Assembly: GCA_964585615.1 (NCBI GenBank)
Contig: CAZPEN010000023.1
Coordinates: 1 to 64,000 of the forward strand
Direction: 5' to 3'
Source of the DNA: an uncultured Chthoniobacter sp.
GTDB lineage: Bacteria; Verrucomicrobiota; Verrucomicrobiia; Chthoniobacterales; Terrimicrobiaceae
DNA: 64,000 bases
Within the stretch, counting starts at the first letter, position 1; each line of letters begins with the position of its first letter. The position numbers and the translations under genes were made by a program. Under the pieces are notes generated by a model that was given only the letters and a program-made list of their open reading frames with translations, made no database searches and was not told the origin of the DNA. Positions 1-20,923 of this stretch are shown one piece after another.

Positions 1-4
1 GGCC

Positions 5-68
5 GGTTCCGGGCGCTAGGTGTTACGCTTTATCCTTTTACCCTGCGAAGCAGGGACGGAAAAAATTT
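5..68. repeat. Copy 1 of a ~48-60 nt conserved intergenic element (core aggtgt..ccttttNCCCTGCgaaGCAGGGNcggaaaaaa) containing a 6-bp GC-rich inverted repeat
   Basis: Gapless alignment of 18-65 with 16577-16624 gives 42/48 identical nt. Internal palindrome CCCTGC-gaa-GCAGGG followed by an A-run. Lies about 110 nt upstream of the sigma-54 promoter at 178. Confidence 0.6.
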
Positions 69-177: not shown

Positions 178-193
178 TGGCACGATTTTTGCC
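178..193 (+). promoter_or_regulatory. Sigma-54 (RpoN) -24/-12 promoter: TGGCACGatttTTGC
   Basis: Exact match to the TGGCACG-N4-TTGC consensus. GC of the -12 element at 191-192, 15 nt before the ATG at 207. Same strand as the downstream gene block. Confidence 0.7.
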
Positions 194-958: not shown

Positions 959-2620
959 ATGCCTGCCGTCTCCGAGCTCAATCTGGCGCTGGTGATTCTC
1001 CGCGATGGGGCCGAGGGGGAGACCATTCCACTCAAGGGCGGAAAATTTACGTTCGGGCGCGATGCGGCGCACGATCTCACCCTGCCCGATGCCTCGGTCT
1101 CCAGAAACCACGCGGAGCTGGCCATTTCGCCAGGTGGAGTGCAACTCCGCGACCTCGGGAGCCGCAACGGCATCCGAGTGAACCGGGTTCCCCGTAAGCA
1201 GGCCAACCTCCTGCCGGGAGACACCTTCGAGATTGGTGTATTTACCTTCCGCCTCAAGGCCGGAGCGGCTCAACGGCGTGCGCCCGCGCTGCAACGCCCT
1301 TCGCCAGAGGTCGCCATCGAACAAACCGTCTCTCGCGCCTTCCCACTCCCGCAGCTGTCCCATGAGCGGCAACTCTCCACCATTTACCACGCCTGTTTCT
1401 GGCTCACGGAGAGCACGGATCCTGAGCTTCTCACCGAACGCCTTGCCCGCCTGCTTTGCGATGCGACCGATGCGGTGGAGGCGCAGTTTTATTCCGCAGA
1501 TCTCACCCTGCGCCACCGCTGCGGAGAGGCCGGAAAACCTGTTGTGAAGATCGCTGCTTTCCTTGCTGAGAAATTCCAGTCCCTGCCCGAGGCGGCCATG
1601 GTATCCGGTAAGGAGATCGCCCGGCACCAAAGGGGCGTCGGCCAGTTCAACTATCTCGTGGGCCCGATTCGCCGGGGGGGGAATGGCGATGCGGCAGCCC
1701 CTTTTATCCTCCTCTTGCGCCCCGAAGATTGGGAACCTTTCACCCTCGATCAGCGCGTGCTGTTGCAAGCCGTCTGCCAACTTTGGGCCAGGGAGACGGT
1801 CAAAATCGAAGCCACTGAGACCCTCCGCCGCGAGAACCAAGCCCTCAAGTTGAAGGCGGCCTCCCCAACCTTGCTCGGCCAGAGCGACGTCCTCCAGCAC
1901 CTGCGCCAGCAACTCAACCGCGCCGCCGCCACCAAGGCCACCATTCTGCTCGATGGCGAGACCGGCTCCGGCAAGGAAGTTGTCGCCCAATTTATCCACG
2001 AATCCAGCCCCCGTGCCGCCAAGCCCTTCGTCAAGGTCAACTGCGCCGCCATTCCCGACGGCCTCATCGAGAGCGAACTCTTCGGCCACCAGAAGGGGGC
2101 CTTCACAGACGCAAAAGACAGCCGCAAAGGCAAATTCCTTCAAGCCAACGGAGGCACCCTTTTCCTCGACGAAATCGGCGAGATGCCTCTCTCCGTGCAG
2201 GCCAAGGTGCTCCGCGCCCTCGAAAACGGGGAGATCGAACCCCTCGGCAGCGAGGCCGTGCAGAAGGTGGATGTGCGCGTCATCGCCGCCACGCACCGCA
2301 ACCTTGCCGAGATGGTCGAGCGCAAGGAATTCCGCCAGGACCTCTACTTTCGTCTCAATGTCTTCAACCTCGGTGTCCCTCCGCTGCGAGAACACGCCGG
2401 GGATATCGCCGAACTGGCCCGCCATTTCCTCGAAGCCTTCTGCCGCGAAAACGGCCTCGCCGAACTCGCCATCGCCCCCGCGGCCCTGGCCCTTCTCGAA
2501 AAACACCAATGGCCCGGCAACGTGCGCGAACTGCGCAATGTCATCCAGCGTTGCGCGATCGTTGCCGCCGGGCCGACGGTTTTGGCGGAAGACGTGAAAA
2601 AGGCGATCGGTGTTTCCTAA
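959..2620 (+). CDS. FHA-domain / GAF-like / sigma-54-interaction (AAA+) transcriptional activator lacking a C-terminal HTH
   Basis: N-terminal FHA signature ([22 protein letters not shown]...NGIRVN). Central AAA+ sigma-54 activator motifs: GETGSGKE Walker A, GAFTDA (GAFTGA-like), DEIGEM Walker B, GNVREL. Protein ends about 30 aa after the AAA+ domain with no Fis-type HTH. Confidence 0.85.
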
Positions 2621-2638
2621 GCATCAAAAAATCCATCC

Positions 2639-4438: not shown

Positions 4439-4444
4439 AAGGGT

Positions 4445-5758
4445 ATGATCACTACAACTGAAGAATTGCTTGCCCGCGCCCGCTCTGCCCTGGGAAAGAA
4501 GATCCCTTATGAGAACAGCAAAGGTGGCTTCAAACCCGAAATCGATACTCCCAATCAGCGCGGCGGTTGCGACTGTAGCGGTTTCGTCGCCTGGGCGCTC
4601 GGCATTAGCCGCCTCACGAAGGATCCGTTCTACCTCCGCAAGAATGGTGGCTGGATTGAGACAACAGCCGTTTATGAGGATATTGGCTCGCCGGTGGGGC
4701 TGTTCTCTGCCCTGGACCAGCCACAACCCGGATGCGTCGTGGTCTATCCAGATCACGTCGCCGGTGGCACACCACACGAAGGTCACATCGGAATCGTGAC
4801 GAAGGTAAGAAAAACCGCAGCCGGTGCGGAAGCAACCTCCGTGATTCACTGCTCCTCATCGGGTTGGAAGAAGCAGGGAGACTCTATCCAGGAGAACGCG
4901 CCAGCCGCTCTGCTCAAGAATCCAGATGTGAGATACGGGTGGTTTTCCGGTATGGAATCTGTCATGTCGCCCGCTTCCAGATCCACGATTACCACAGCAA
5001 CCAGAGGGTTGCTCAGAGATGTCCCGCATGCCGCGGGAGTCCGGTTTTCCGTGAAGGAAGGGGACGGGATATTTACCCACGCCTGGGAGTTCCCCGGCGA
5101 GACACCATTCTTTTTTCAGAGCCGCCTTCATGTGTGCGCTGACGGTGCGCCAGACGCCTATGCGCCGGGAAACCTGGGAACAGACGACCTGCGTAACGCC
5201 GGAAAGCCTCCTCGCAAAGACGCTCCGATGGATCGCGACTTTCACCTCTGGAAATGGTTTGGCATAGTTGTTGGTGACGGAAATCACCCCATTGTACAAA
5301 AAGCCTCCGACCCCAACCCCGGCTTCTTCGTTTCCCAAACCGCCCATGGCAACTGGGGACGCTACCCGGAGACCGATCCGCGCTGCTACGTGAACGCCAA
5401 CGAGATCGCCTATCTGGTGCTTCCGAGTGGGCATACCGGCGGAGCTCGCAAGGGAGATTTTGGATCTATTATTCATCGCCCCACCGGCAAGGCGATCCCC
5501 GCCATCTGGTCCGAAGTGGGGCCGGACGACGAGACCGGGGAAGCATCGATTCTGGCTGTGAAGCAACTGGGATTTGTCGCCAACCCTCGCAAGGGAGGCA
5601 GTTCAAAACGCGAATTCCTCTATCTCGTCTTCCCGGGCTCAGGCAATGGTCGGCCTCGCGAGCAGAAAGAGATCGAAAAGATCGGCGGCCGACTTTTCGC
5701 CGATTGGGGCGGAATCCAGCGGGTATCGCGCCTGCCGGATCTGACGGGACGGGTATGA
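4445..5758 (+). CDS. NlpC/P60-like (papain-fold) cell-wall peptidase domain protein with a C-terminal domain of unknown function
   Basis: GGCDCSGFVAWALG motif (NlpC/P60 catalytic Cys context) and downstream HIGIV His. About 290 C-terminal residues unassigned. Confidence 0.6.
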   Translation: MITTTEELLARARSALGKKIPYENSKGGFKPEIDTPNQRGGCDCSGFVAWALGISRLTKDPFYLRKNGGWIETTAVYEDIGSPVGLFSALDQPQPGCVVVYPDHVAGGTPHEGHIGIVTKVRKTAAGAEATSVIHCSSSGWKKQGDSIQENAPAALLKNPDVRYGWFSGMESVMSPASRSTITTATRGLLRDVPHAAGVRFSVKEGDGIFTHAWEFPGETPFFFQSRLHVCADGAPDAYAPGNLGTDDLRNAGKPPRKDAPMDRDFHLWKWFGIVVGDGNHPIVQKASDPNPGFFVSQTAHGNWGRYPETDPRCYVNANEIAYLVLPSGHTGGARKGDFGSIIHRPTGKAIPAIWSEVGPDDETGEASILAVKQLGFVANPRKGGSSKREFLYLVFPGSGNGRPREQKEIEKIGGRLFADWGGIQRVSRLPDLTGRV

Positions 5759-7596
5759 ACTTCAGGACGGAGGGGCATCTGAACAGGGAGGACTCGCAAG
5801 GCTGGTATTTTAGTGAGTTCGACAGAATTGGCCTTGGCCGATTCCTCCTCCGGCAGAACGCAGGGCGCAAGCTGGCTTTGTGGGCTTTGCTGTTCTGGTC
5901 GATCGTCCTGCTTCTTGGCCACTACGGGAAAGCCAACTATATTCCCCGCGTTTTCGAATTGTCTTTCCCGGTTGGAGAGCAATGGGAAAAATTCACTCTT
6001 GTTCTAAAAAGCGGCTACCTTGCCGAGGCCAACCACGGTCTTTTTTACCTGCTGGTTGCTCCCCTGTTTCTCTTCCTCGCCCACTCCTTTCTATGGCAAG
6101 TGGGTGCCATTACCAGGACCTTGATTGAACACCGCAGGCTTGTGCCCCTGCCACCCAGCGCGAGTTTTACGGAGCGCCTCGCACGATGGAACACCTGGTT
6201 TTTGCCAATTTGGATTCTGGCCTTTTGTGTTTGGGTTCCGGCCCAGCTGTTTCAGGAATATTCCAGCCTCAACAAGGTGAGGTCTTCCGGTTACGACCGG
6301 AAGTCGGAAAGCCTCTCAAAGAACTTTGGCTATGTGCAGGCTTGGCAGACGGGAAAATGGTGCGACACGTTTGGAGAAACTCCCCTGCACGAGCGGGCGG
6401 AATGGCTGGCATCAAGCCGATTGTGGAAAGAAGAGTCTCCCTCGTTATCCCAGAAATTCGAAAATCGCGTCGCTTATAACAAACTCGGCATCCCCTCAGA
6501 ATACTTTATCTCGCTTGAGGCCAGAACGCAGGGATTGGCCTTTAACACCCTCCGGCCAGAAAAGGCCGGAAGAATCTATGACTCGGGACACTTTGCGATT
6601 CGACTTCCCGATTGGTTGCACGCACGAGGAGTTGCTCTGGACAAGCCACCGAAATGGAACTTTACGGTGCTGCCCCAACATCGATGGGATGCCCAAACGG
6701 TACGGGAAAAATATTGCTTTGAAGCCTTCCTGTTTCTCAATCTTGCCTCGGAAGCCTGTTTCCAGGTTGTCGCAACGCTTATCGTGATCAAGAGCATCGC
6801 CTGGATCGTTCTTTTGCAATATTGGCTGCCTTCCGCGACAACTTCCAAACCAAACGGAACGATCTTTCGCTTCATGAGGGAGGTTTTCCCCAAGGTATTT
6901 GCCATTGCCGCGCTCGGACTTACGGTCGTTTTTGCTTGTATCAAGCCGATGACCTTGTTCGCCACGGTTCCGGCCTGGCTGCTGGCTGCCTTGCTTTTCA
7001 ATCTCGCACGTCAGGGACGCAAGGAGGCGATTGCGCACGCCAAGATCAGGCCGGACTGCCAGGATCCGACCCGCAAATACGGAATGGGGGAAATTCACGC
7101 CATATACAATGCCATGGTTGCCCTGGCCGCACTTGGAGCGCTGGGTCTATGCCTACTACTTCTGAATTCCTTCACCCCCGGAGTCTTGGACACGGGTGGC
7201 GGCCACACACAGGTTATCGAATTTCTGAGCATTCTTTTGGTTGTAGCAGTGGTTTTGGCCGTAGTTTTCGGGCCGATGACGTTATTCAGTTGGCACCTCG
7301 CGACGTATCGGGAAAAATGCATCGGCAGAGTGGCCGCCAAAGGCACGACGGAATGGCTGCGCTTGACGGATTTGATGAGAAGCCAATGGGCTTGGCCGTG
7401 GAAGAATGCCTGGTTTGTGACATTGTCGGGGGCGGTCATCGCATTTTGCGCCGTGGGAGCCGGCATGAGCCTGGGTTTTCTGCCGGGTGAGTTACAGAGC
7501 TCTGCCGACAGCTTCATGGATTTGCCACGAAACTTTCGCGAGTTGGCTTGCTATCTTGCTTCCGCCACCAATCCAGAATTGTCTTTCCGAGATTGA
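5755..7596 (+). CDS. polytopic integral membrane protein (about 12 predicted TM helices), unknown function
   Basis: Many long hydrophobic segments. ATG at 5755 overlaps the upstream TGA (ATGA coupling). Confidence 0.6.
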   Translation: MNFRTEGHLNREDSQGWYFSEFDRIGLGRFLLRQNAGRKLALWALLFWSIVLLLGHYGKANYIPRVFELSFPVGEQWEKFTLVLKSGYLAEANHGLFYLLVAPLFLFLAHSFLWQVGAITRTLIEHRRLVPLPPSASFTERLARWNTWFLPIWILAFCVWVPAQLFQEYSSLNKVRSSGYDRKSESLSKNFGYVQAWQTGKWCDTFGETPLHERAEWLASSRLWKEESPSLSQKFENRVAYNKLGIPSEYFISLEARTQGLAFNTLRPEKAGRIYDSGHFAIRLPDWLHARGVALDKPPKWNFTVLPQHRWDAQTVREKYCFEAFLFLNLASEACFQVVATLIVIKSIAWIVLLQYWLPSATTSKPNGTIFRFMREVFPKVFAIAALGLTVVFACIKPMTLFATVPAWLLAALLFNLARQGRKEAIAHAKIRPDCQDPTRKYGMGEIHAIYNAMVALAALGALGLCLLLLNSFTPGVLDTGGGHTQVIEFLSILLVVAVVLAVVFGPMTLFSWHLATYREKCIGRVAAKGTTEWLRLTDLMRSQWAWPWKNAWFVTLSGAVIAFCAVGAGMSLGFLPGELQSSADSFMDLPRNFRELACYLASATNPELSFRD

Positions 7597-7664
7597 AAAT
7601 ATAGCTCGTTGAAATACCTCGTCTCACAATGAGCACATTCTCCTATTGCGACATGACCAGAACT

Positions 7665-7680
7665 TGGCACAGAAATTGCC
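7665..7680 (+). promoter_or_regulatory. Sigma-54 -24/-12 promoter: TGGCACagaaaTTGC
   Basis: Matches the TGGCAC-N5-TTGC consensus. In the 95-nt gap before the kinase gene. GC of -12 at 7678-7679, 13 nt before the GTG at 7692. Confidence 0.65.
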
Positions 7681-7691
7681 GGCCAGCGTAA

Positions 7692-9599
7692 GTGACAAAC
7701 GACGAACTCAATTCCTCCACGCTCAGCGGCGCGACCAGCGCCGGCGACGGTGCGTTGCCGGACGACATCGATTTCGGCCAGACGATCCGCGGGTTTGTCG
7801 AAGGGCAGGAGGCGTTTGGCCGTTATCGCCTTCGGAAGATTTTGGGCCGGGGCGGCATGGGGCTTGTCTGGCTGGCATGGGACGGACGGCTGGAGCGGGA
7901 TGTCGCGCTCAAGTTCATGCCGGAGATGGTGCGTTTGGATGCTTCGGCCATTGACGATCTCAAGCGGGAAACGCGCAAGAGCCTCGAACTCACTCATGCC
8001 AACATCGTTCGCATTCACGATTTTGCCATGGACGACTTGTCGGCAGCCATCGCCATGGAATATGTGGATGGCCCTACGCTTTCGGCTCTCCGCATCCAAA
8101 AACCGAACCGCGTTTTCGAGCCGGACGAGATTGTTGAGTGGGTGCGCCAGCTCTGCGCCGCCCTCGACTATGCACACTCGGAGGCCAAAATCGTCCATCG
8201 TGACCTCAAACCCGCCAACCTGATGCTCAGTTCCGGCGGACGCCTCAAAATCACCGACTTCGGCATCGCACGATCAATCAGCGACAGCATGAGTCGCGTT
8301 TCGGTGCAGCATCACGACAGCAGCGGCACGCTCGCCTACATGAGTCCACAGCAGGCCATCGGTGCGAAGCCTTCCTCAGCGGATGACATCTACAGCCTCG
8401 GGGCGACTCTCTATGACCTCCTTACCGGGAAGCCTCCGTTCCACAGCGGGAACATCTACGCCCAAGTTCGAGAGGTTGTGCCACCACCCATAGCCGAGAG
8501 ACGGGTGCAGCTGGACGTGGGAAGCAGCATGGTGCTTCCTGAGTCATGGGAAAAGATGATTGCAGCTTGCCTGGCGAAGGATCCTGCACACCGCCCGCAA
8601 TCGGCTGCCGAGATCTGGGAGGGTCTCAACGTACGTGTGTCCGCTGACACGTTGAAAAAATCGAGCCGCTTTCCGGTGCGGGTGGCTGCTGTTGTGGTCC
8701 TCTCCCTCATCGCTGCAGGCGCAGGCTGGTGGTTCGGCTACGAGCAGCCGCGCCAGCAGGCTGCTGCCGCACTCGCAGCCCAGGCGCAGGCCGAGGGACT
8801 CGCCCGCCAGGCCGCTGCTGCCGAGGCACAGGTTCAAAAGGAAGAAGCCGAAACCGCCGCTCGACAGGAAGCCGAGCGAAAGAAGGCCGAAGCTGCCGCC
8901 GCCGAGCAAGCCCGCATCGCCGCAGCCAAGCAGCAGCTCATCACCGAGACCCAGGATCTTGCTCAAAAGGCGCTCGCGGCCAAACAGTGGAACCAGGCAG
9001 AGTCCATTGCCGACAAACTTACCTCGCTCGACCCTCAGAATACGCAGATCGCGAGCATCCGCCAGTCTACAGTAGTCGGCCGCGAAGCCCAGCGTACCTC
9101 CGAGGAACGCGCCCGGGCGCTGCCCCCCGACCTCCCCGCCTCCGCAGCCTTCAGCACAGAAGCGATCTTCGCTCCCTCCCCCTACGCATCATACAACAAC
9201 TACTCGCAAAGTCAGATCCTTCGAAGAGCTCAGGAAAAGCTCAAATCAGCCGGGCTTTACAGCGGATCCGCTGACGGAGAATCCGGTGCAGGAACCACAA
9301 ATGCACTCATCGCTTTCCAGCGGGCAGACATGAACTTGCCTGTTTCAGGACGGTTGGATGATCCCACGCTCGCCGCACTCGGCCTCACCGGCATCGCCGA
9401 AATGACAGCGCCTACCCCCACACCACGTCCAAAACCGACCGCCACACCGAGGCCAAAGCCCGCAGGCACTACGAAGCCTCCTCCTTCCAATCCCAATAGT
9501 TCCGTGGATCCTAGAAGTGCCCTTCAAAGAAACTACGAGGCGGGATACATAGACAAAGAAACAAGAGACTTTTACCTCGAAGGTTTAAAAAACAGATAA
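7692..9599 (+). CDS. Hanks-type Ser/Thr protein kinase with TM helix, Ala/Gln/Glu-rich coiled-coil linker and C-terminal peptidoglycan-binding (PG_binding_1-like) domain
   Basis: Kinase motifs GRGGMG, VALK, HRDLKPAN, DFG, SGTLAYMSPQQ. TM segment VAAVVVLSLIAAGAGWWFG. C-terminus LKSAGLYSGSADGESGAGTTNALIAFQRADMNLPVSGRLDDPTLAAL matches the PG_binding_1 pattern. GTG start. Confidence 0.9.
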   Translation: MTNDELNSSTLSGATSAGDGALPDDIDFGQTIRGFVEGQEAFGRYRLRKILGRGGMGLVWLAWDGRLERDVALKFMPEMVRLDASAIDDLKRETRKSLELTHANIVRIHDFAMDDLSAAIAMEYVDGPTLSALRIQKPNRVFEPDEIVEWVRQLCAALDYAHSEAKIVHRDLKPANLMLSSGGRLKITDFGIARSISDSMSRVSVQHHDSSGTLAYMSPQQAIGAKPSSADDIYSLGATLYDLLTGKPPFHSGNIYAQVREVVPPPIAERRVQLDVGSSMVLPESWEKMIAACLAKDPAHRPQSAAEIWEGLNVRVSADTLKKSSRFPVRVAAVVVLSLIAAGAGWWFGYEQPRQQAAAALAAQAQAEGLARQAAAAEAQVQKEEAETAARQEAERKKAEAAAAEQARIAAAKQQLITETQDLAQKALAAKQWNQAESIADKLTSLDPQNTQIASIRQSTVVGREAQRTSEERARALPPDLPASAAFSTEAIFAPSPYASYNNYSQSQILRRAQEKLKSAGLYSGSADGESGAGTTNALIAFQRADMNLPVSGRLDDPTLAALGLTGIAEMTAPTPTPRPKPTATPRPKPAGTTKPPPSNPNSSVDPRSALQRNYEAGYIDKETRDFYLEGLKNR

Positions 9600-9646
9600 T
9601 ACCGCGATTTCTAACAGCTACCAACTTACTATCTTTTAAACACAAT

Positions 9647-10252
9647 ATGAACCTGAAAAAATTCGCATGCCATTTCACTCTTGCCATGTTGCTTTTAGGA
9701 GTTACTCCGTCCTGCACACAAAATGACTCCCTCTATTCCGCCTGGGGGGTGAGGCGAGGGGAATTACTGATGAATAACTTCCCTGTGCCTGAAGGTGTAT
9801 ACGGATTCAACCCGTCTTGGGCGGAAACTGGTTTCCGGGGGTCAGTGACAGTGAGACGAGTTCCTCAAAGCGATGGCCTCAAAGTTTACAACATTACAGG
9901 TTCAATCTCTTGGAGTAGGCAGTCAAAGCCACATGAAAAAGATCCTCTGCCTGGTTGGCCAGATGCTCGAGAGGATGGCTCTGTCACTATAGACGGTGTA
10001 TATGCAAAAGCCGGGCGGTTCTACTTGCTAGATGGATCTGCTACTCTCAATGGCGTCGCGACTGGTCCTGGCTATTTCGACTATTTGAAGAAAGTCGGCC
10101 TGCCTGGCGGACAGAGAGAGTTTACAATCTCAACCCAGCAGATTCAGTGTGAAGTTGTGCCTACGAATACACCTCCAGGCTTAGTTATAAGCTGCTTCAA
10201 GAATAATGTGCCCATTCCACCTGTCAAAATTGTACTCTTCAAAAGACTCTGA
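9647..10252 (+). CDS. secreted hypothetical protein
   Basis: Signal peptide. Markedly lower GC than flanks. Confidence 0.5.
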   Translation: MNLKKFACHFTLAMLLLGVTPSCTQNDSLYSAWGVRRGELLMNNFPVPEGVYGFNPSWAETGFRGSVTVRRVPQSDGLKVYNITGSISWSRQSKPHEKDPLPGWPDAREDGSVTIDGVYAKAGRFYLLDGSATLNGVATGPGYFDYLKKVGLPGGQREFTISTQQIQCEVVPTNTPPGLVISCFKNNVPIPPVKIVLFKRL

Positions 10253-10352
10253 TCTCATCTCATATATGCAGCCGTTTCTTGGTAAACTGTAGTGTTAGTG
10301 CCATGATACAACACCACCATGAGATGTTACGTGGAGCAGAGAAACAAAAGCG

Positions 10353-11168
10353 ATGATCCCTACACTCCGCAAAAACGATAAAGGCGATGCTGTCTCGCGC
10401 TGGCAGACCTTTCTCATCGGCCAAGGCTTCCACGCAAAAGGCGCCGACGGCGTTTTCGGCAAGGACACGCTCATCGCCACGGCGGCTTTCCAAAAGAAAT
10501 ACAAACTCAAGCCCGACGGTGTCGTAGGCAACAGCACCTACGCGGTGGCCGCACAACTCGGCTTTCCGATCACCACCGATGACTCGACCGCCCAGAATTC
10601 CATCTCGTGGCCAGTGCCGCCGAAGGATTTCGGTCCGACCAACGCAGAAACCCGGGACGCTGAGTTCGGATGGTTTGATTTCGAGCACGCTCCAGCCCCC
10701 AAAAACTATGAACGCATCCGCATCCTCTCGACGTGGGAGAAGGATAATCTGATCGTGGTGGATGTCCCGCAACTAGCGAAGGCCCTTGGATTAGCCACCC
10801 AAAGAGCCACCATCCACAAGAATATCCAAGATCCCTTTCTCTCTGTGTGGGCAGCTTGGGAAAAAGCAGGGCTGCTAGACCGCATATTGACTTGGGAGGG
10901 TGCTTTCTCCCCACGCTTCATCCGGGGCGGAGCCACACCCAAGAACGTCCAGGCCAAGAATCGCAGCAAGCTCAGCAACCACGCATGGGGCACGGCTTTC
11001 GACATCAACTACGAGTGGAACCAACTCGGCTCCATTCCGGCCCTTGTCGGACAGAAGGGCAGCGTCCGCGAGTTGGTCCCGCTCGCCCTCAAGCACGGCT
11101 TCTTTTGGGGTGGTCACTTCCGCAACCGGCTCGACGGCATGCACTTCGAATGGGGGCGGTGGACATGA
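10353..11168 (+). CDS. peptidoglycan-binding domain (PG_binding_1) + M15 (VanY/L-Ala-D-Glu peptidase-like) zinc peptidase
   Basis: N-terminal GDAVSRWQTFLIGQGF..DGVFGKDT..AFQKKYKLKPDGVVGNSTY matches PG_binding_1. C-terminal SNHAWGTAFDIN and GGHF..DGMHFE motifs match M15 zinc-binding H-x6-D ... H. Confidence 0.75.
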   Translation: MIPTLRKNDKGDAVSRWQTFLIGQGFHAKGADGVFGKDTLIATAAFQKKYKLKPDGVVGNSTYAVAAQLGFPITTDDSTAQNSISWPVPPKDFGPTNAETRDAEFGWFDFEHAPAPKNYERIRILSTWEKDNLIVVDVPQLAKALGLATQRATIHKNIQDPFLSVWAAWEKAGLLDRILTWEGAFSPRFIRGGATPKNVQAKNRSKLSNHAWGTAFDINYEWNQLGSIPALVGQKGSVRELVPLALKHGFFWGGHFRNRLDGMHFEWGRWT

Positions 11169-11367
11169 TGCCCCGCCGGGGAGCGATGTATACCGCAGCC
11201 CCGAGCAAAGTGGGCGAACAAAGCTGGCACGGAAATCGGTTTTCGACTACAAAACTTCGCTTATGAATTTCTTCGCGAACGACCACCTCCAACGCAGCGG
11301 CTTGGCCTGATCAAACTCACTCTTTCAAATAATGTTTTGATTTCCCTCTTTTAACGATCCCACCTTC

Positions 11368-11838
11368 ATGAAAATAACAGATTTGACCGCGAAGATGAAA
11401 AAAGTCTCAGTACTTTCCGCAATCCTCTTCAGCCTTGCCTTTGCGGGGTGTGCTTCCATTTCCGATTACGACCAGACCGCATACAAGAATGCGGTTGATC
11501 TCAAGGTGGATACCCTGACTGTGATGAGTCGGGCCAATCAGCCCTATTCCTCCCAGAAAGACTCTTTGGACGCCTTGGGGGTGCAGATGGATAAGGCTTA
11601 CGAATACGACGCCGGACGACCAGTCAACCAGAAGACCCTCCAGATGTGGGATATCCTTTTGAAATCCGATGCCGCCATTCCCGAAAATGGAATCTGGCCG
11701 AAATTCGTGGAGAGGTGGCGGGCGGACGGGCGTCTCTCCGGAGCCTATCTGCAAGACAAGAAGGAAAACGTCGCCGATGCCTTCGACAAGATCATTGCCC
11801 TCGAAAGCGGCAAGTTGAAACCATCGGACATTCCCTGA
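11368..11838 (+). CDS. lipoprotein, unknown function
   Basis: Signal peptide with lipobox (LAFAGCAS). Confidence 0.5.
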   Translation: MKITDLTAKMKKVSVLSAILFSLAFAGCASISDYDQTAYKNAVDLKVDTLTVMSRANQPYSSQKDSLDALGVQMDKAYEYDAGRPVNQKTLQMWDILLKSDAAIPENGIWPKFVERWRADGRLSGAYLQDKKENVADAFDKIIALESGKLKPSDIP

Positions 11839-11844
11839 CAGCAT

Positions 11845-12171
11845 ATGGCAAAAAACAGCATTGATTGGGGCCAGGTCGGCAGCGACGTGGCGAAACTCGC
11901 ACAGAGCATCTTTTCGAGCCGCGCCAAGGCGCTGGCCAAGGATGGGATGATCTTCTTGAAGGAGGTCCAGGAGCGCGCAATTAAGTATCATCTTCAGCTC
12001 GCAACCGAGCAAATCACGAAGTCCGAATTCAACGAACTGATGCTTGACCTGAAGGCACTGGCGAAAATGGAAAAGCTCAAACAGGAGGGGCTCACCCTAG
12101 TCGCCCGTGACAAGTTTATTAACGGTGCCATCGACATCCTGATGAAAGCGGCGATTTCTGCCATTCCCTGA
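11845..12171 (+). CDS. hypothetical protein (helical)
   Basis: ORF tightly packed within the unidirectional cluster. Confidence 0.35.
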   Translation: MAKNSIDWGQVGSDVAKLAQSIFSSRAKALAKDGMIFLKEVQERAIKYHLQLATEQITKSEFNELMLDLKALAKMEKLKQEGLTLVARDKFINGAIDILMKAAISAIP

Positions 12172-12181
12172 GGAGGAGGCC

Positions 12182-12799
12182 ATGCCACTCTCTCTCCTGA
12201 ATAACACCTCGATCCGTCTCGATGAGGTGATTGCCGCCATGCGGGCGAAAAAATATCACGTATTTGACCGGGAGGACTACCAATTGAACATCGTCGGCAT
12301 CCGTCGGAGACCGTTCAAGGTGGATGTCTTCAACGATACTCTCTTCTGTTTTCACCCGTTGAACGGGCAGTGGACTTACGCGAAATACCAGATCACCACG
12401 ATTCCCGGACTCACGTATCTCAAGGAGAAATTTTATCATGAGAAGGGAACGGCCATTCTTATGCCCGGGCAATACAAGGATGCCTATGAAATCGGCAATC
12501 ATTGGGGGTATCAGGCGGTCTGCCAGAAGGACTCGGTGCGTCTGCCGGTCTATCGCGACGACAAGTTCGACGGTATCCCCGAGCTGGACGACAGAAAGCG
12601 CTTCACGGCTGGCGGGATCAATATCCACAGGGCTTCCCGACAAGGATGCACCATTCGGATCGGAGAGTACTCCGCCGGGTGCCAGGTTTTCCGGTGCGCC
12701 GAGCATTTCGATGGGTTTATGGCAACCGCCCGACGCGCCCGCGCAATGCATGGAAACTCCTTCACCTACACCTTGATCGACGAGTCGGACGTGCGGTGA
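12182..12799 (+). CDS. hypothetical protein
   Basis: ORF in the cluster. No motif I can assign with confidence. Confidence 0.4.
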   Translation: MPLSLLNNTSIRLDEVIAAMRAKKYHVFDREDYQLNIVGIRRRPFKVDVFNDTLFCFHPLNGQWTYAKYQITTIPGLTYLKEKFYHEKGTAILMPGQYKDAYEIGNHWGYQAVCQKDSVRLPVYRDDKFDGIPELDDRKRFTAGGINIHRASRQGCTIRIGEYSAGCQVFRCAEHFDGFMATARRARAMHGNSFTYTLIDESDVR

Positions 12800-12982: not shown

Positions 12983-12998
12983 TGGCACGGAATCTGCC
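12983..12998 (+). promoter_or_regulatory. Sigma-54 -24/-12 promoter (near-consensus): TGGCACGgaatCTGC
   Basis: TGGCACG-N4-CTGC (GC of -12 conserved). 54 nt upstream of the ATG at 13051. Same TGGCACGGAAT as the promoter at 18894. Confidence 0.55.
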
Positions 12999-14592: not shown

Positions 14593-14863
14593 ATAAAATG
14601 GACTCCAGTTCCAATGACAATTCGGTTTCCCGTTGGATGGAACATCTCAGTTCCGCACTGCTTTTGCTCATGGGTGGCTGCCTGGGAGGGGGCGCGATTT
14701 TCGAGATTGTCTTTAAACGCGGAGAACCTTCCGTTTTGCGACAGGAAACATTGCTGGGAATTTTGGTGGCGGCAGCCCTCCTTCTTCCGGGGGTGGCACC
14801 AGAGTTTCGCGCAAACTAGCCAAACAAAAAATGAGAAATCAAAAATGGGGAAGCTGCAGAGAA

Positions 14864-15640
14864 ATGAAATACATTGTTTTAGCACTGCTGGGCATAGCAG
14901 GATTCTCTCGCGCGCAGGAGACAAATTCGCTTGGGATGAAACTTGTGCCGGTGCCTGGAACAAAGATCCTGATGGCGACGACGGAGGTGACGGTGGACCA
15001 ATACAAGGCGGCAGGGCTCGGGTATGAGTCGCCGAAGTTTCCGCAGGGAGGCAATCACCCTGCGGTGAACGTGAGCTGGAACGACGCGAAGAAGTATTGC
15101 GCGTGGCTGAGTAAGAAGGAGGGGAAGAAGTATCGGCTGCCGACAGATCATGAATGGAGTTGCGCTGTCGGAATCGGACATTTGGAGAATCCAGCAGACA
15201 ATCCGGCAAGCAAGAGTGAAAAGATCGTTGATGTGTATCCATGGGGAAAAGGGAAGCCGAGCGGGAAGGCAGGCAACTACATGGGGCAGGAGTGGAATTC
15301 GCCAATGGGAATCGAGACCGCTCAAAAATACGGATTCAAGCGGGGCGAGTGGAGTTTAGTTCCTGGCTATCACGACGGAGTTCTTTTCACATCGGCGGTC
15401 GGCAACTACTCACCGAATACATTTGGGATCTACGATTTGGGGGGAAACGTTTGGGAGTTGTGCGAGGACAAGTTCGGCGGGAACGGATATGATAAGAGCA
15501 TGCGTGTGCAACGGGGCGGGTCATGGGGATACTTCACCAAGGATTTTGTATTATCGTCCTCCCGTATCCGCAATGAACCAGGATCTCGCAGCGACAACAT
15601 CGGCTTTCGGGTTGTGTGTATTCCAATAGATAAACCGTGA
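14864..15640 (+). CDS. FGE-sulfatase (SUMF1/formylglycine-generating enzyme family) domain protein, secreted, paralog 1
   Basis: NHPAVNVSWNDAKKYCAWLS, RLPTDHEW, DLGGNVWE, RGGSW motifs typical of the FGE-sulfatase domain. Signal peptide. Confidence 0.8.
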   Translation: MKYIVLALLGIAGFSRAQETNSLGMKLVPVPGTKILMATTEVTVDQYKAAGLGYESPKFPQGGNHPAVNVSWNDAKKYCAWLSKKEGKKYRLPTDHEWSCAVGIGHLENPADNPASKSEKIVDVYPWGKGKPSGKAGNYMGQEWNSPMGIETAQKYGFKRGEWSLVPGYHDGVLFTSAVGNYSPNTFGIYDLGGNVWELCEDKFGGNGYDKSMRVQRGGSWGYFTKDFVLSSSRIRNEPGSRSDNIGFRVVCIPIDKP

Positions 15641-15756
15641 ATGATATGAATGAATCAAAAACGTTGGCAAAGCCAGGAATTGGAAGACAGCCTTCCGGAT
15701 TTAGTATCGAAGTGGAGAGCGAAGCGAAGCAAATGGCTTGCCGATCCGTCCGAGTA

Positions 15757-16566
15757 ATGAAAGCGAAACGCATCGGCAGGATGCGGATGCCACGATGGGT
15801 TGTCTTGGCGATGGCGCTTGTGGTGTCGGCGTCTATCGCTCGCGCGCAGGGTTTCACGAACAGCGTTGGAATGAAGATGGTTCCTGTGCCGGGCACAAAG
15901 ATCCTGATGGGGACGACGGAGGTGACAGTGGATCAATACCGGGCGGCAGGTCTGGGGTATGAGGCACCGGAGTTCGCGCAGAGCGGGAACCATCCGGCGG
16001 TGAATGTGAGCTGGAACGATGCGAAGAAATACTGCGCATGGCTGAGCAAGAAGGAGGGGAAGAAGTATCGTTTGCCGAGTGACCGGGAGTGGAGTTGCGC
16101 GGTGGGGATCGGGAATCTGGAGAGCGTGGGAGGGAGCCCGGAGAGCAAGTGCGAGAAGTTGCCGGATGTGTTTCCGTGGGGAAGCGGGAAGCCGAGTGGG
16201 AGGGCAGGGAATTACATGGGGCAGGAGTGGAAAAGTAGCTCGGCAGGAATAGCATATGCGAAATCGAAGGGTTGGAAAGAGGGGCAACTGTGCCTGGTTC
16301 CCGACTACAATGATGGACACATGTTCACGGCTCCCGTGGGAAGCTATTCACCGAACAGTCTTGGGATCTACGATCTGGGGGGAAACGTGTGGGAATGGTG
16401 CGAGGACAAATACGGAGGAAGCGGAGCAGCAAAAGCCTATCGTGTGATGCGCGGCGGGGCGTGGGGCGGTGGCGACATCTGCGGTTTGCTGTCGTCGTGT
16501 CGCGATCACGTCAATCCCGAGTATCGCGGCGGTAGCTACGGTTTTCGGGTGGTCTGTGAGGCGTGA
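15757..16566 (+). CDS. FGE-sulfatase domain protein, secreted, paralog 2 (tandem duplicate)
   Basis: About 70% identical to the upstream paralog over the domain. Same motifs. Confidence 0.8.
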   Translation: MKAKRIGRMRMPRWVVLAMALVVSASIARAQGFTNSVGMKMVPVPGTKILMGTTEVTVDQYRAAGLGYEAPEFAQSGNHPAVNVSWNDAKKYCAWLSKKEGKKYRLPSDREWSCAVGIGNLESVGGSPESKCEKLPDVFPWGSGKPSGRAGNYMGQEWKSSSAGIAYAKSKGWKEGQLCLVPDYNDGHMFTAPVGSYSPNSLGIYDLGGNVWEWCEDKYGGSGAAKAYRVMRGGAWGGGDICGLLSSCRDHVNPEYRGGSYGFRVVCEA

Positions 16567-16646: not shown

Positions 16647-17366
16647 ATGAAATGCCATTTTGGTGGTTCAAAGCGGTCGAATCGAGAAAGCCAAGCCTCT
16701 CAACAGGAACTTAACGGTGTCCGGCGGATTTCGCTACTGCCTCTTTGCGTTTTTTTGATCCTGACTTTTCTCGCGAGCCATGTCGGAGCGCAATCCTACG
16801 GCTTGGCACCAATTTATGTGGGTATTGAGAAGAACGCGATATCCGGTATTTCGGCTTCGCAGAAGACACCGATGTGGTGTTGGGCTGCTTGTATTGAGAT
16901 GGTGTTGCGGTATTACAACATTGAAATCACTCAGGAAGATGTCGTCTATCGCACCTACGGTATTGACGCGGCTGGAAATCTGCCAGTATTTGGAGCGAAA
17001 GCCCCGGAGATCACACGGAATCTAAATAACTGGAGTTTCGATCGGAATGGCAAACCTTACGTGGTTCGGGCGGCGTTGTTTCCGGGAACTCCGCGTAACG
17101 AGATTGTCATTGATCATCTCAAATCGGGAAGGCCCATTATCCTGGGATATGGACCTGATCCTGATTCCGGCCATGTCGTGGTGCTGACGGCACTGAGTTA
17201 TGTCGTGGACCAATATGGGAGGCCATATGTGACTACCTTGATTGTGCGAGATCCGTTTCCCGATAATTGGGGATTGATGGATCGAGGGCGAAAGGAATAC
17301 GTGAACGGCATGCTCCCGGCACCGATTCAATGGATGTGGATCGTGGATGCAAAACGGGCCTATTGA
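16647..17366 (+). CDS. secreted papain-like cysteine peptidase (C39-like domain)
   Basis: Signal peptide. PMWCWAACIEMVL (Cys in a C39/papain-like context) and downstream SGHVVVLTAL His. Confidence 0.55.
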   Translation: MKCHFGGSKRSNRESQASQQELNGVRRISLLPLCVFLILTFLASHVGAQSYGLAPIYVGIEKNAISGISASQKTPMWCWAACIEMVLRYYNIEITQEDVVYRTYGIDAAGNLPVFGAKAPEITRNLNNWSFDRNGKPYVVRAALFPGTPRNEIVIDHLKSGRPIILGYGPDPDSGHVVVLTALSYVVDQYGRPYVTTLIVRDPFPDNWGLMDRGRKEYVNGMLPAPIQWMWIVDAKRAY

Positions 17367-17502
17367 ACTGCCACGCCTGATGAAGTACAAATAAATGTCT
17401 GCCCAGCACCGCGATAAATCCCTGTCCGCTCTTCTTTTAAAATATGACTGTAGCCAGATCCAAATATAGAAAGAGAAAGCTACAAATGGCTGTTCAGATT
17501 GG

Positions 17503-18893: not shown

Positions 18894-18909
18894 TGGCACG
18901 GAATTTGCC
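18894..18909 (+). promoter_or_regulatory. Sigma-54 -24/-12 promoter: TGGCACGgaatTTGC (perfect consensus)
   Basis: Exact TGGCACG-N4-TTGC. 58 nt upstream of the ATG at 18966. Precedes the tandem FHA-TM-caspase genes. Confidence 0.75.
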
Positions 18910-20921: not shown

Positions 20922-20923
20922 CT

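What the first reader, a model, noticed from the sequence alone, without database searches (positions are those of the whole stretch)
4445..11168. Peptidoglycan-centred sensing/lysis module: STK with PG_binding_1 ectodomain, PG_binding_1-M15 peptidase, NlpC/P60 protein
The kinase C-terminus and the N-terminus of the M15 peptidase carry the same peptidoglycan-binding repeat type. The usual PASTA domains of cell-wall-sensing kinases are absent. An NlpC/P60-like protein and a 12-TM protein sit in the upstream unit. This suggests muropeptide or cell-wall state is the input of the system and hydrolases are among its outputs.
Basis: partly seen in the sequence, partly recalled or inferred. Interest (0 to 1): 0.55.

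Follow-up and report, generated by a model that had tools for sequence, protein, structure and literature searches.

The report
Wall-binding kinase beside unlinked lysin genes
A membrane kinase with a cell-wall-binding outer domain really does sit next to three phage-lysin-like wall-cutting enzymes, but related genomes keep the kinase with a different set of signalling partners and never with these enzymes, so the proposed sensing/lysis unit is probably an accident of this one genome.

Summary
The Ser/Thr kinase (7692-9599) has one membrane helix and a C-terminal PG_binding_1 domain (E 4e-12) and no PASTA. The next-but-one gene (10353-11168) is PG_binding_1 + M15_4. The "NlpC/P60" gene (4445-5758) has a papain-fold N-domain plus a GH75 chitosanase-like domain.

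The window is from a verrucomicrobial genome (Terrimicrobiaceae-like).
- **Kinase context in relatives:** orthologues always lie in an island of FHA-sigma54 activator, SPFH, FGE-sulfatase, FHA-caspases and further kinases with other outer domains, and none of the loci examined holds a hydrolase.
- **Promoters:** sigma54-type promoters (TGGCACGGAAWTTGCC) precede the kinase, SPFH and FHA-caspase genes here and in relatives.
- **Hydrolases elsewhere:** the M15 enzyme, the CHAP-GH75 enzyme and a third lysin-like gene (12182-12799) all lack signal peptides. They have phage relatives or phage-type modules, and their homologues sit in unrelated contexts.
- **The two PG_binding_1 domains:** they share only 37% identity over 35 residues.

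Best reading: a wall-anchored receptor kinase of a conserved sigma54/FHA envelope-signalling island, into which endolysin-type genes have been inserted. Only the lipoprotein gene and the M15 gene could plausibly be co-transcribed with the kinase. Interest is modest.

The parts
178..193 (+). sigma54-type promoter (TGGCACGATTTTTGCC) before the small lipoprotein gene
   Evidence: the gene has homologues in L002 and L003
207..680 (+). small exported/lipoprotein-like protein; conserved island backbone
959..2620 (+). FHA + sigma54-interaction AAA+ activator that ends at the AAA lid, with no DNA-binding HTH
   Evidence: FHA 1.7e-14, Sigma54_activat 3.1e-71, AAA_lid_14 to aa 550 of 553; 64% identical orthologue in L002
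2639..4438 (+). cytoplasmic protein: N-terminal region with a GxSxG-like AHSLGS motif, plus a caspase-like C14 domain with an intact His/Cys dyad; not found in related islands
4445..5758 (+). signal-less two-domain wall hydrolase candidate: NlpC/P60-CHAP fold (aa 1-170) + GH75 chitosanase-like domain (aa 217-432)
5755..7596 (+). integral membrane protein with about 9-10 predicted helices, from a rare uncharacterised family; its start overlaps the stop of the previous gene by 4 nt
7665..7680 (+). sigma54-type promoter (TGGCACAGAAATTGCC) 12 nt before the kinase start codon
   Evidence: same position before orthologous kinases in L002, L004, L005, L112, L115
7692..9599 (+). receptor Ser/Thr kinase: kinase domain aa 45-303, one membrane helix aa 327-345, Ala/Gln/Glu-rich stretch, PG_binding_1 aa 510-563 (nt 9219-9380), Pro-rich tail
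9647..10252 (+). small exported protein (201 aa) of unknown function with low GC3 (0.46); no relatives found in any fetched locus or viral contig
10353..11168 (+). signal-less PG_binding_1 (nt 10383-10544) + M15_4 metallopeptidase (nt 10959-11153), endolysin-type architecture
11225..11240 (+). degenerate sigma54-like site (TGGCACGGAAATCGGT; the -12 element is lost)
11368..11838 (+). lipoprotein (lipobox LAFAGC), 156 aa, unknown function
11845..12171 (+). 108-aa protein with no domain hit and no membrane segment
12182..12799 (+). signal-less 205-aa protein of a phage family (phrog_3000; weak match to an endolysin family); probable third wall hydrolase
12983..12998 (+). sigma54-type promoter before the SPFH gene
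   Evidence: same position in L002 and L004
13051..14592 (+). zinc-ribbon + SPFH/Band_7 protein; conserved island backbone
14831..16566 (+). two tandem FGE-sulfatase-domain proteins (14831-15640, 15637-16566); conserved partners of the kinase
16647..18771 (+). exported C39/C70-like papain protease (16647-17366) and a 422-aa membrane protein (17503-18771), both with low GC3
18894..18909 (+). sigma54-type promoter before the FHA-caspase pair
   Evidence: same position in L005
18966..22600 (+). two FHA - one membrane helix - caspase proteins (18966-20921, 20924-22600) with intact His/Cys dyads; conserved island backbone

Best explanation
**What the kinase is.** It is one member of a large verrucomicrobial family of single-pass receptor Ser/Thr kinases with interchangeable outer domains. 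In this member the outer domain is PG_binding_1. That domain most likely tethers the receptor to the peptidoglycan layer, or reports on it, in the periplasm.

**What the kinase belongs to.** Its conserved setting is a sigma54/FHA signalling island, not a hydrolase module.

**Inferred pathway.**
1. The kinase autophosphorylates on threonine.
2. FHA domains read the phosphothreonine. The readers are the DNA-binding-domain-less sigma54 activator (959-2620) and the two membrane-spanning FHA-caspases.
3. The activator fires the sigma54 promoters in front of the kinase, the SPFH gene, the FHA-caspase pair and the small lipoprotein gene. This gives a self-amplifying envelope response.

**What the hydrolases are.** The three wall hydrolases are CHAP-GH75, PG_binding_1-M15 and the 205-aa phage-family protein. 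All are endolysin-type enzymes without export signals. Together with 2639-4438, 5755-7596 and the small lipoproteins, they occur in this island only in this genome. Their adjacency to the kinase is best read as insertion into a variable island.

**Possible exception.** The 9647-10252 and M15 genes may be read through from the kinase's sigma54 promoter.

**Shown:** the domains, the topology by hydropathy, the conserved partners, the conserved promoters, and the non-conservation of the hydrolases.

**Inferred:** phosphotransfer, FHA docking, promoter activity, and wall binding.
For: **Domains and topology:**

**Variable outer domains:** the family shows many different outer domains. 20 of the 120 best hits carry PG_binding_1. 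Others carry PEGA, FGE-sulfatase, SH3, YARHG, Sel1 or beta-helix.

**Kinase arrays and backbone:** related Terrimicrobiaceae contigs hold tandem arrays of 3-5 such kinases plus homologues of the lipoprotein, activator, SPFH, FGE-sulfatase and FHA-caspase genes. They hold none of 2639-7596 or 9647-12799.

**Closest PG_binding_1 kinases:** those at 62-63% identity sit next to FGE-sulfatase x2, a Zn-ribbon-FHA protein and Band_7.

**Promoters:**
- The strict sigma54 motif occurs 7 times in the window against 1.6 +/- 1.3 in Markov shuffles.
- Four of the seven lie 11-57 nt upstream of + strand backbone genes.
- Motif density is 1.6 per 10 kb in related islands against 0.09 per 10 kb in 855 kb of unrelated loci, again just upstream of kinase, SPFH, FGE and FHA-caspase genes.
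- The repeat finder independently recovers the promoter as a 22-nt repeat family (D8).

**Hydrolases:**
- About 1,958 M15 homologues share the same signal-less architecture. Their contexts are unrelated to one another.
- GH75-like homologues in 80 metagenome loci (526 kb) have no M15, FHA, caspase or SPFH neighbour.
- Phage affinities of the M15 and 205-aa proteins.

**Rest of the window:** the ten largest ORFs scanned beyond 26 kb are ordinary chromosomal genes, with no phage or secretion apparatus among them.
Against: - The island genes from 165 to 22600 all lie on one strand, with short gaps, and no intrinsic terminator is predicted between the kinase, the lipoprotein gene and the M15 gene. 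Co-transcription, and hence a real regulatory link in this genome, cannot be excluded.
- Three signal-less lysins, a cytoplasmic caspase and an odd membrane protein packed into one signalling island is more than one would expect from a single random insertion.
- In one distant genome (L024), homologues of the CHAP-GH75 and 205-aa proteins again lie together, with an FHA-kinase gene 3 kb away.
- The relatives compared are only 46-64% identical in their full-length orthologues, so a closer strain sharing the arrangement might exist.
- No experiment supports wall binding, phosphorylation or promoter use.
- The kinase promoter lies so close to the start codon (about 11 nt after the motif) that the mRNA would be almost leaderless.
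Confidence: 0.6

Rival explanations
1. This is the first reader's reading sharpened into a kinase-triggered autolysis (programmed death or abortive infection) module. Wall damage is sensed through PG_binding_1. The kinase then activates the FHA activator and the caspases. Signal-less lysins held in the cytoplasm reach the wall once the membrane is breached, perhaps by the 5755-7596 membrane protein, and the cell lyses.
For: - The genes are co-directional and tightly packed, with gaps of 18, 6 and -4 nt from 2620 to 5758.
- The M15 gene lies downstream of the kinase's sigma54 promoter with no predicted terminator.
- All three hydrolases lack signal peptides, as holin-dependent endolysins do.
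- Three caspase-like proteins with intact dyads lie in the island.
- The kinase domain resembles kinases in anti-phage model sets such as PD-T4-6 and mad6, though these models match any Hanks kinase.
Against: - None of the hydrolase, membrane-protein or lipoprotein genes is present in any related island examined.
- Hydrolase homologues elsewhere have no kinase, FHA or caspase partner.
- The membrane protein has no similarity to holins or to anything characterised, and one homologue sits in an unrelated context.
- No small holin-like ORF exists in the gaps.
- PADLOC gives no system-level match for the hydrolases.
Confidence: 0.2
2. The hydrolases are exported weapons against other bacteria or fungi, paired with immunity lipoproteins. 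The pairs would be 9647-10252 with the M15 enzyme and 11368-11838 with the 205-aa enzyme. On this reading they merely landed in the island.
For: - Signal-less wall hydrolases each sit directly after a small exported or lipoprotein gene.
- A CHAP-GH75 homologue lies next to a giant RHS-type (DUF6443) protein in Ferruginibacter.
- An M15 homologue follows a 1,166-aa patatin protein in Spirosoma.
- The GH75 domain is related to a proven chitosanase.
Against: - No secretion apparatus (T6SS or a contractile injection system) appears among the genes scanned.
- The lipoprotein genes are not conserved next to homologues of the hydrolases.
- No recognisable effector-delivery domain was found.
Confidence: 0.1
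3. The segment 9647-12799, and perhaps 4445-7596, is the decayed lysis cassette of a former prophage.
For: - PHROG endolysin families match the M15 protein, and phrog_3000 matches the 205-aa protein.
- The M15 domain is 47% identical to a gene in a phage contig that carries terminase and tail-sheath genes.
- The 205-aa protein is about 40% identical to proteins of crAss-like and Bacteroides phages.
- 9647-10252 has a deviant GC3 of 0.46.
Against: - No integrase, capsid, tail or terminase gene appears among the genes scanned.
- No flanking attachment-site repeats were found.
- The full-length M15 architecture is not found in cultured phages, but it is common in bacterial chromosomes in non-phage contexts.
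- The M15 and 205-aa genes have host-like GC3 of 0.71.
Confidence: 0.1

Closest known systems
PASTA-domain receptor kinases (PknB / PrkC / StkP / Stk1)
   Same: Both have a Hanks-type kinase inside the cell, a single membrane helix, and a peptidoglycan-related module outside. The kinase domain matches the NCBIfam PknB_PASTA_kin model over aa 42-399. The likely logic, wall state to Thr phosphorylation, is the same. That the logic is shared is an inference from established knowledge of PASTA kinases.
   Different: - This kinase has no PASTA repeats.
- Its model score of 244.8 is well under the 450 cutoff.
- The outer module is a single PG_binding_1 three-helix domain behind a long Ala/Gln/Glu-rich stretch.
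- The partners are FHA-sigma54, SPFH and caspases, not cell-division or PBP genes.
- The phylum is Verrucomicrobiota, not Firmicutes or Actinobacteria.
Modular endolysins of Gram-negative phages (phiKZ gp144 / KZ144 type)
   Same: Both have an N-terminal PG_binding_1 domain followed by a C-terminal catalytic domain, and neither has a signal peptide. The best solved match of the M15 protein's N-domain is gp144 (3BKH, E 1.8e-7).
   Different: - The catalytic domain is an M15_4 metallopeptidase, not a lytic transglycosylase.
- The gene is chromosomal, without holin or phage neighbours.
- About 2,000 bacterial homologues have the same layout.
V-Csn, the soil-virus GH75 chitosanase (PDB 7TVL)
   Same: The C-terminal half of 4445-5758 aligns over the whole V-Csn chain (E 5e-34; Foldseek E 1.7e-18). 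The positions I judged equivalent to its two catalytic acids (D148, E157), by counting along the alignment, keep an acidic residue. One is E or D (E357 here) and the other is invariant (E366 here).
   Different: - The domain here is fused to an NlpC/P60-CHAP peptidase.
- Relatives fuse it to Amidase_2, VanY or PG_binding_1. This points to peptidoglycan, perhaps de-N-acetylated, rather than chitosan as the substrate. That is an inference.
Ser/Thr kinase to FHA-domain sigma54 activator pathways (Myxococcus FHA-type enhancer-binding proteins; T6SS PpkA-Fha1)
   Same: All three have a kinase, FHA readers and sigma54-dependent promoters in one neighbourhood. The Myxococcus and T6SS precedents are cited from my own knowledge and from reviews listed.
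   Different: - The activator lacks a DNA-binding domain.
- The promoters sit in front of the kinase genes themselves.
- The other FHA readers are membrane-spanning caspases.
- There are no T6SS genes among those scanned.
Caspase-containing 'conflict systems' of multicellular-type bacteria (Kaur et al. 2020, PMC7159879)
   Same: Both include caspase-like peptidases, FGE-sulfatase-type domains and membrane-anchored wall-associating domains (PEGA, Sel1, PASTA). The paper reports its systems in Verrucomicrobia among other phyla.
   Different: Those systems are built around NTPases (MoxR-vWA, STAND, GTPases). This island has none of these, and is instead wired through a kinase, FHA domains and sigma54.

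Membership tests
PG_binding_1 (PF01471) | Profile HMM score above Pfam's gathering cutoff (23 bits) in the kinase | tested here: met
   46.5 bits, E 4.3e-12, aa 510-563. The domain is conserved in orthologues.
PG_binding_1 (PF01471) | Profile HMM score above the gathering cutoff in the M15 protein | tested here: met
   40.0 bits, E 4.5e-10, aa 11-64. It matches the PG-binding domain of phiKZ gp144.
PG_binding_1 (PF01471) | Actual binding to peptidoglycan | not testable with these tools
   This needs a sacculus pull-down or muropeptide binding with the purified domains.
PASTA kinases (PknB/PrkC/Stk1) | Extracellular PASTA repeats | tested here: not met
   No PASTA model appears at E<=0.01.
PASTA kinases (PknB/PrkC/Stk1) | NCBIfam equivalog score at or above the cutoff (450) | tested here: not met
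   The score is 244.8 bits, and the match covers only aa 42-399, from the kinase domain to just past the membrane helix.
PASTA kinases (PknB/PrkC/Stk1) | Hanks kinase domain with catalytic motifs and a single membrane helix | tested here: met
   Pkinase E 7.9e-47. The motifs ALK, HRDLKPAN and DFG are visible in the sequence. There is one helix at aa 327-345.
Peptidase M15 (VanY / M15_4) | Profile HMM above the cutoff and zinc-ligand motifs (SxHxxGxAxD ... H) | tested here: met
   53.2 bits against a cutoff of 25. The motifs SNHAWGTAFD and DGMHFE are present here and in the 15 homologues inspected.
NlpC/P60 - CHAP papain-fold peptidases | Profile HMM above the cutoff | tested here: inconclusive
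   CHAP scores 25.5 bits against a cutoff of 26. Eleven of the 12 longest homologues carry PF05257 in the precomputed annotation.
NlpC/P60 - CHAP papain-fold peptidases | Conserved Cys/His catalytic pair and papain-like fold | tested here: met
   C44 and H114 are invariant in 10 sequences. The model's N-domain has pLDDT mostly 72-90. It matches RipD, MAP1272c and MAP1204 P60 domains at probability 0.97-1.0 and CHAP domains more weakly.
GH75 chitosanases | Sequence and fold similarity, and conserved catalytic acids | tested here: met
   phmmer against V-Csn gives E 5e-34 over the whole chain, and Foldseek gives E 1.7e-18. An acidic residue is kept at both positions I judged catalytic from the alignment. 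The Pfam GH75 model itself scores only 18.8 bits against a cutoff of 27.
GH75 chitosanases | Chitosan hydrolysis | not testable with these tools
   Fusions to Amidase_2, VanY and PG_binding_1 in relatives suggest a peptidoglycan-type substrate instead.
Phage lysis cassette (endolysin + holin, in a prophage) | Adjacent holin or spanin genes, and phage structural or integration genes nearby | tested here: not met
   No small membrane ORF lies in the gaps. No phage genes appear among the window genes scanned.
T6SS-type effector-immunity pairs | Secretion apparatus or delivery domains, and a conserved adjacent immunity gene | tested here: not met
   No apparatus genes appear among the window genes scanned. 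The lipoprotein neighbours are not conserved beside homologues.
Bacterial sigma54 enhancer-binding proteins | Sigma54-interaction AAA+ domain with a GAFTGA-type loop | tested here: met
   Sigma54_activat scores 238.9 bits. The loop reads GAFTDA, one substitution from the consensus.
Bacterial sigma54 enhancer-binding proteins | C-terminal DNA-binding HTH | tested here: not met
   The protein ends 3 residues after the AAA lid, and there is no HTH_8 hit.
Bacterial sigma54 enhancer-binding proteins | Sigma54 promoters (GG-N10-GC) at target genes | tested here: met
   Four intergenic TGGCAC-N5-YYGC sites occur in the island, and they are conserved in relatives. Their activity was not tested.
Caspase-like peptidases (C14) | Profile HMM above the cutoff and a His/Cys dyad | tested here: met
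   The three proteins score 92.7, 64.9 and 78.9 bits. SGHG and D(C/A/S)CH(S/A)GG motifs are present in all three.

The most novel reading that the evidence does not exclude
The conserved island is an envelope-surveillance system of an immune-like kind.
- Arrays of sigma54-driven receptor kinases with diversified outer domains would act as pattern sensors. The outer domains include PG_binding_1, PEGA, FGE-sulfatase, SH3 and Sel1.
- Their phosphothreonine marks would be read by FHA domains on membrane-spanning caspases and on a DNA-binding-domain-less sigma54 activator.
- In this genome the island has captured three export-signal-less endolysin-type enzymes and a rare membrane protein. A wall-damage signal would therefore end in self-lysis.

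If true, this would be a kinase-gated suicide or abortive-infection pathway not yet described.
Probability: 0.12. Interest if true: 0.75.

Novelty: new variant of a known kind. Interest (0 to 1): 0.33.

Why it matters
Wall-sensing by bacterial Ser/Thr kinases has been studied almost only through PASTA domains in Gram-positive bacteria. A conserved group of kinases that uses PG_binding_1 instead, in a Gram-negative-type phylum, would widen that picture.

The wiring is also unusual. These kinases are linked to sigma54 promoters, to an FHA activator without a DNA-binding domain, and to membrane-spanning FHA-caspases. That offers a defined, testable circuit.

The specific idea that made the finding attractive, a kinase that controls neighbouring lysins, is not backed by conservation. 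The practical value is mainly a corrected annotation and a caution against reading function from one-genome adjacency.

Two enzyme families also deserve biochemical attention in their own right. One is the signal-less PG_binding_1-M15 family, with about 2,000 members. The other is the GH75-like domain, which keeps fusing to peptidoglycan hydrolase modules.

Tried and rejected
**Structure and remote-homology attempts that gave nothing**
- Single-sequence AlphaFold of the 205-aa protein gave an unusable model (pLDDT 34.5).
- Sequence and profile searches of that protein against PDB sequences found nothing.
- The N-terminal region of 2639-4438 has no PDB match. It also has no significant similarity to the alpha/beta-hydrolase that is fused to GH75 in Uabimicrobium, so no 'Rosetta-stone' link could be made.

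**The membrane protein 5755-7596**
- It has no Pfam hit and no close relative in metagenome contigs.
- Only 64 relatives were found among 1.84 billion representatives.
- Its family has no Pfam or PDB match.
- The two contexts obtained were a 2.7-kb contig and an unrelated catabolic neighbourhood.

**Other searches**
- Viral-contig scans found no relatives of the CHAP-GH75 protein, 9647-10252 or 11368-11838.
- PADLOC gave only generic kinase, caspase and RtcR-like AAA+ hits plus an unexplained 'Csx23' match for 11368-11838. The PDB search gave that match no support.
- Rfam found only three tRNAs.
- The terminator scan was no better than shuffles (21 found against 24.6 expected). The absence of a terminator after the kinase is therefore weak evidence.
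- Literature searches found no paper on PG_binding_1 kinases or on this island.

**Ideas considered and rejected**
- The two PG_binding_1 domains are not recent duplicates (37% identity over 35 aa).
- The region is not a prophage or a T6SS island.
- The 68-nt repeat at 1-68 and 16560-16627 does not mark a mobile element. It looks like the shared 3' end of paralogous FGE-sulfatase genes.

Full report
**Gene map.** The first 22.6 kb of the window carry 18 genes, all on the + strand.

| Coordinates | Product |
|---|---|
| 207-680 | small exported protein |
| 959-2620 | FHA + sigma54 AAA+ activator |
| 2639-4438 | caspase-like protein with an N-terminal AHSLGS-motif region |
| 4445-5758 | CHAP + GH75-like protein |
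| 5755-7596 | multi-pass membrane protein |
| 7692-9599 | Ser/Thr kinase |
| 9647-10252 | exported 201-aa protein |
| 10353-11168 | PG_binding_1 + M15_4 |
| 11368-11838 | lipoprotein |
| 11845-12171 | 108-aa protein |
| 12182-12799 | 205-aa phage-family protein |
| 13051-14592 | zinc-ribbon + SPFH |
| 14831-16566 | two FGE-sulfatase proteins |
| 16647-17366 | C39-like protease |
| 17503-18771 | membrane protein |
| 18966-22600 | two FHA-caspases |

The ten largest ORFs scanned beyond 26 kb are ordinary chromosomal genes. They include a MoxR/DUF58 cluster, a solute-binding protein and an alpha-2-macroglobulin, and the window also carries three tRNAs. The closest genomes are Terrimicrobiaceae and other Verrucomicrobiota metagenome-assembled genomes.

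**Check of the observation.** Both PG_binding_1 calls pass Pfam's curated cutoff: 46.5 bits for the kinase and 40.0 bits for the M15 protein, against 23.
- **Kinase:** it has a complete Hanks domain, one hydrophobic helix (aa 327-345) and no PASTA hit. The PG_binding_1 domain is therefore predicted to be periplasmic.
- **M15 domain:** it passes its cutoff and keeps the zinc-ligand motifs.
- **'NlpC/P60' protein:** it is a papain-fold peptidase by conserved Cys44/His114 and by fold, although the CHAP model misses its cutoff by half a bit. This is a GH75 chitosanase-like domain matching the solved viral enzyme V-Csn at E 5e-34.
- **Membrane protein:** it has about 9-10 hydrophobic segments, not 12.
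- **The two PG_binding_1 domains:** they belong to the same Pfam family but are not close, at 37% identity over 35 residues.

**What the kinase belongs to.** A search with the kinase returns thousands of verrucomicrobial kinases with the same catalytic domain and helix but different outer domains. These include PG_binding_1 (20 of the best 120), PEGA, CarboxypepD_reg, FGE-sulfatase, SH3, YARHG, Sel1 and beta-helix.

In two Terrimicrobiaceae genomes these kinases form tandem arrays of three to five genes. The arrays lie next to homologues of several window genes:

| Window gene | Identity of homologue |
|---|---|
| FHA-sigma54 activator | 64% |
| SPFH protein | 53% |
| small 207-680 protein | 41-47% |
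| FGE-sulfatase proteins | 32-36% |
| FHA-caspases | 33% (caspase part); 61-68% (FHA part) |

The closest PG_binding_1 kinases (62-63% identical over 90% of the length) lie beside two FGE-sulfatase genes (61-71% identical to those here), a Zn-ribbon-FHA protein and, in another contig, a Band_7 protein. The outer-domain layout is conserved among these orthologues: an Ala/Gln/Glu-rich stretch, a short helical repeat, PG_binding_1 and a Pro-rich tail.

No homologue of 2639-7596 or of 9647-12799 turned up in any of these loci. The ten additional ORFs scanned for domains in L002-L004, and the gene lists, contained no wall hydrolase of any kind. The remaining ORFs of those loci were not scanned for domains.

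**A sigma54 regulon.** The motif TGGCA[CT]-N5-[TC][TC]GC occurs seven times in the window, against 1.6 +/- 1.3 in shuffles.
- **Position:** four of the seven lie in + strand intergenic regions directly upstream of 207-680, the kinase, the SPFH gene and the FHA-caspase pair. They share the extended sequence CTTGGCACGGAAWTTGCC. The repeat finder recovers them independently (family D8).
- **Conservation:** the same motif sits 17-84 nt upstream of kinase, SPFH, FGE-sulfatase and FHA-caspase genes in the related islands. There are 16 sites in 99 kb there, against 8 in 855 kb of unrelated loci.
- **The activator:** it has an FHA domain with the usual GR...SRxH residues and a GAFTDA loop, and it ends at the AAA lid with no DNA-binding domain.
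- **Other FHA readers:** the two FHA-caspases have one membrane helix between the FHA domain and the caspase domain, and intact His/Cys dyads.

The inferred circuit runs from kinase to phosphothreonine, to FHA readers, to sigma54 transcription of the same genes. It is an inference from domain knowledge and motif positions, and none of it was tested.

**What the hydrolases are.**
- **M15 protein:** it belongs to a family of about 1,958 detected homologues of roughly 260 residues. The 120 best hits listed all carry the same two Pfam domains, and the 15 sequences inspected all begin directly at the PG_binding_1 domain or after an N-terminal extension that contains no hydrophobic signal peptide. 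Members come from Verrucomicrobiota, Bacteroidota, Acidobacteriota and others. Its N-domain is most like that of the phiKZ endolysin gp144. Its catalytic domain is 47% identical to a gene on a phage contig that also carries terminase and tail-sheath genes. Three chromosomal contexts of homologues (70%, 62% and 48% identical) share no neighbour with this locus or with each other.
- **CHAP-GH75 protein:** its full-length homologues (42-71% identical) all lack signal peptides and sit in unrelated contexts. Eighty further metagenome loci around GH75-like homologues (526 kb) contain no M15, 205-aa-family, FHA, caspase or SPFH gene, and only one weak kinase match. In relatives the GH75-like domain is fused to Amidase_2, VanY and PG_binding_1. 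This suggests a peptidoglycan-type substrate.
- **205-aa protein:** it matches phrog_3000 (E 3.5e-22) and, weakly, an endolysin family. It is about 40% identical to proteins of crAss-like and Bacteroides phages. One of these is annotated with a PG_binding_1 domain, and another lies on a phage contig a few genes before a tape-measure gene. Its fold could not be determined.
- **One suggestive co-occurrence:** in a bioreactor contig (L024), homologues of the CHAP-GH75 and 205-aa proteins lie 1.5 kb apart, with a GH19 gene and an FHA-kinase gene nearby.

**Weighing the readings.**
- **Against a conserved unit:** the conserved partners of the PG_binding_1 kinase are FHA, sigma54, SPFH, FGE-sulfatase and caspase genes. 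The hydrolases are present only here, and their own families show no attachment to kinases. This argues against a conserved sensing/lysis unit.
- **For a local link:** all genes run in one direction. The 9647-10252 and M15 genes follow the kinase's promoter without a predicted terminator, although the terminator scan has no power here. Three signal-less lysins plus a rare membrane protein in one island is also striking.
- **Probabilities:** I put about 0.6 on 'conserved sigma54/FHA receptor-kinase island with locus-specific lysin insertions'. I put about 0.2 on a genuine kinase-gated lysis module in this genome, and about 0.1 each on antagonism effector/immunity pairs and on a prophage remnant. 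The last two concern the origin of the lysins and are partly compatible with the first.

**Comparison with known systems.**
- **Kinase:** it works like a PASTA kinase in outline but is not a member of that family. It has no PASTA repeats and falls below the family cutoff.
- **M15 protein:** it has the layout of phiKZ-type modular endolysins, but with a different catalytic domain and no phage context.
- **Kinase-FHA-sigma54 wiring:** it recalls the FHA-type activators of Myxococcus and the PpkA-Fha1 switch of type VI secretion. These two precedents are from my own knowledge. The absent DNA-binding domain, the promoters in front of the kinase genes and the membrane-spanning FHA-caspases differ from both.
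- **Literature:** I found no paper describing PG_binding_1 kinases or this island in the searchable library.

**Verdict.** The finding is a new variant of known kinds, of modest interest. The conserved island around it is the more interesting object.

Noticed in passing
window 178-193, 7665-7680, 12983-12998, 18894-18909; L002, L003, L004, L005, L112, L115: A conserved sigma54-type promoter (CTTGGCACGGAAWTTGCC) sits directly before kinase, SPFH, FGE-sulfatase and FHA-caspase genes across Terrimicrobiaceae islands. Its density there is 17-fold higher than in unrelated loci.
   Followed up: yes
window 959-2620: The FHA-sigma54 activator has no DNA-binding domain and a GAFTDA loop instead of GAFTGA. 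Its central region (aa 100-290) has no domain hit.
   Followed up: partly
window 18966-22600: Two tandem proteins have the layout FHA - one membrane helix - caspase, with intact His/Cys dyads. The caspase domain would lie outside the membrane. Their FHA domains have Thr where the usual Arg of the GR motif sits.
   Followed up: partly
window 11368-11838: This lipoprotein (lipobox LAFAGC) matches the PADLOC model named Csx23 almost end to end (E 1.2e-11). It has no match in PDB sequences and no CRISPR context in the window.
   Followed up: partly
window 1-68 and 16560-16627: A 68-nt direct repeat (81% identical) covers the 3' end of an FGE-sulfatase gene plus a hairpin (CCCTGCGAAGCAGGG). It suggests that another FGE-sulfatase paralogue lies just upstream of the window.
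   Followed up: no
window 14831-16566: The two FGE-sulfatase genes are tandem duplicates, with 74-78% identical DNA blocks about 935 nt apart. Two such genes also precede the closest orthologous kinase in L112.
   Followed up: partly
L024 7807-12440 and 14257-17421: In a bioreactor-sludge contig, homologues of the CHAP-GH75 protein (50%) and the 205-aa protein (51%) lie 1.5 kb apart. A PhoD-like gene, a GH19 gene and an FHA-TPR-kinase-LRR gene are nearby.
   Followed up: partly
P0014, P0016, P0029, P0030, P0032 (homologues of window 4445-5758): The GH75-like domain is fused in other organisms to Amidase_2, VanY, PG_binding_1 or a secreted alpha/beta-hydrolase. The CHAP half is fused to PG_binding_1. 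This looks like a modular wall-hydrolase toolkit.
   Followed up: partly
window 12182-12799: The 205-aa family keeps an invariant His149 and a Tyr-Ser-Ala-Gly-Cys-Gln-Val motif (aa 163-169). This is reminiscent of YkuD-type active sites, but the fold could not be confirmed.
   Followed up: partly
window 5755-7596: This membrane protein belongs to a very rare family. Only 64 relatives were found among 1.84 billion representative proteins, and the family has no Pfam or PDB match.
   Followed up: partly
window 9647-10252, 16647-18771: Three genes have a GC3 of 0.46-0.52, against 0.65-0.75 for the conserved island genes. This suggests recent foreign origin.
   Followed up: no
window 27952-34813 (- strand): A cluster of RDD, DUF58, MoxR-type AAA_3, DUF4350 and DUF4129 genes lies here. 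An alpha-2-macroglobulin gene of 1,830 aa lies at 50759-56251.
   Followed up: no
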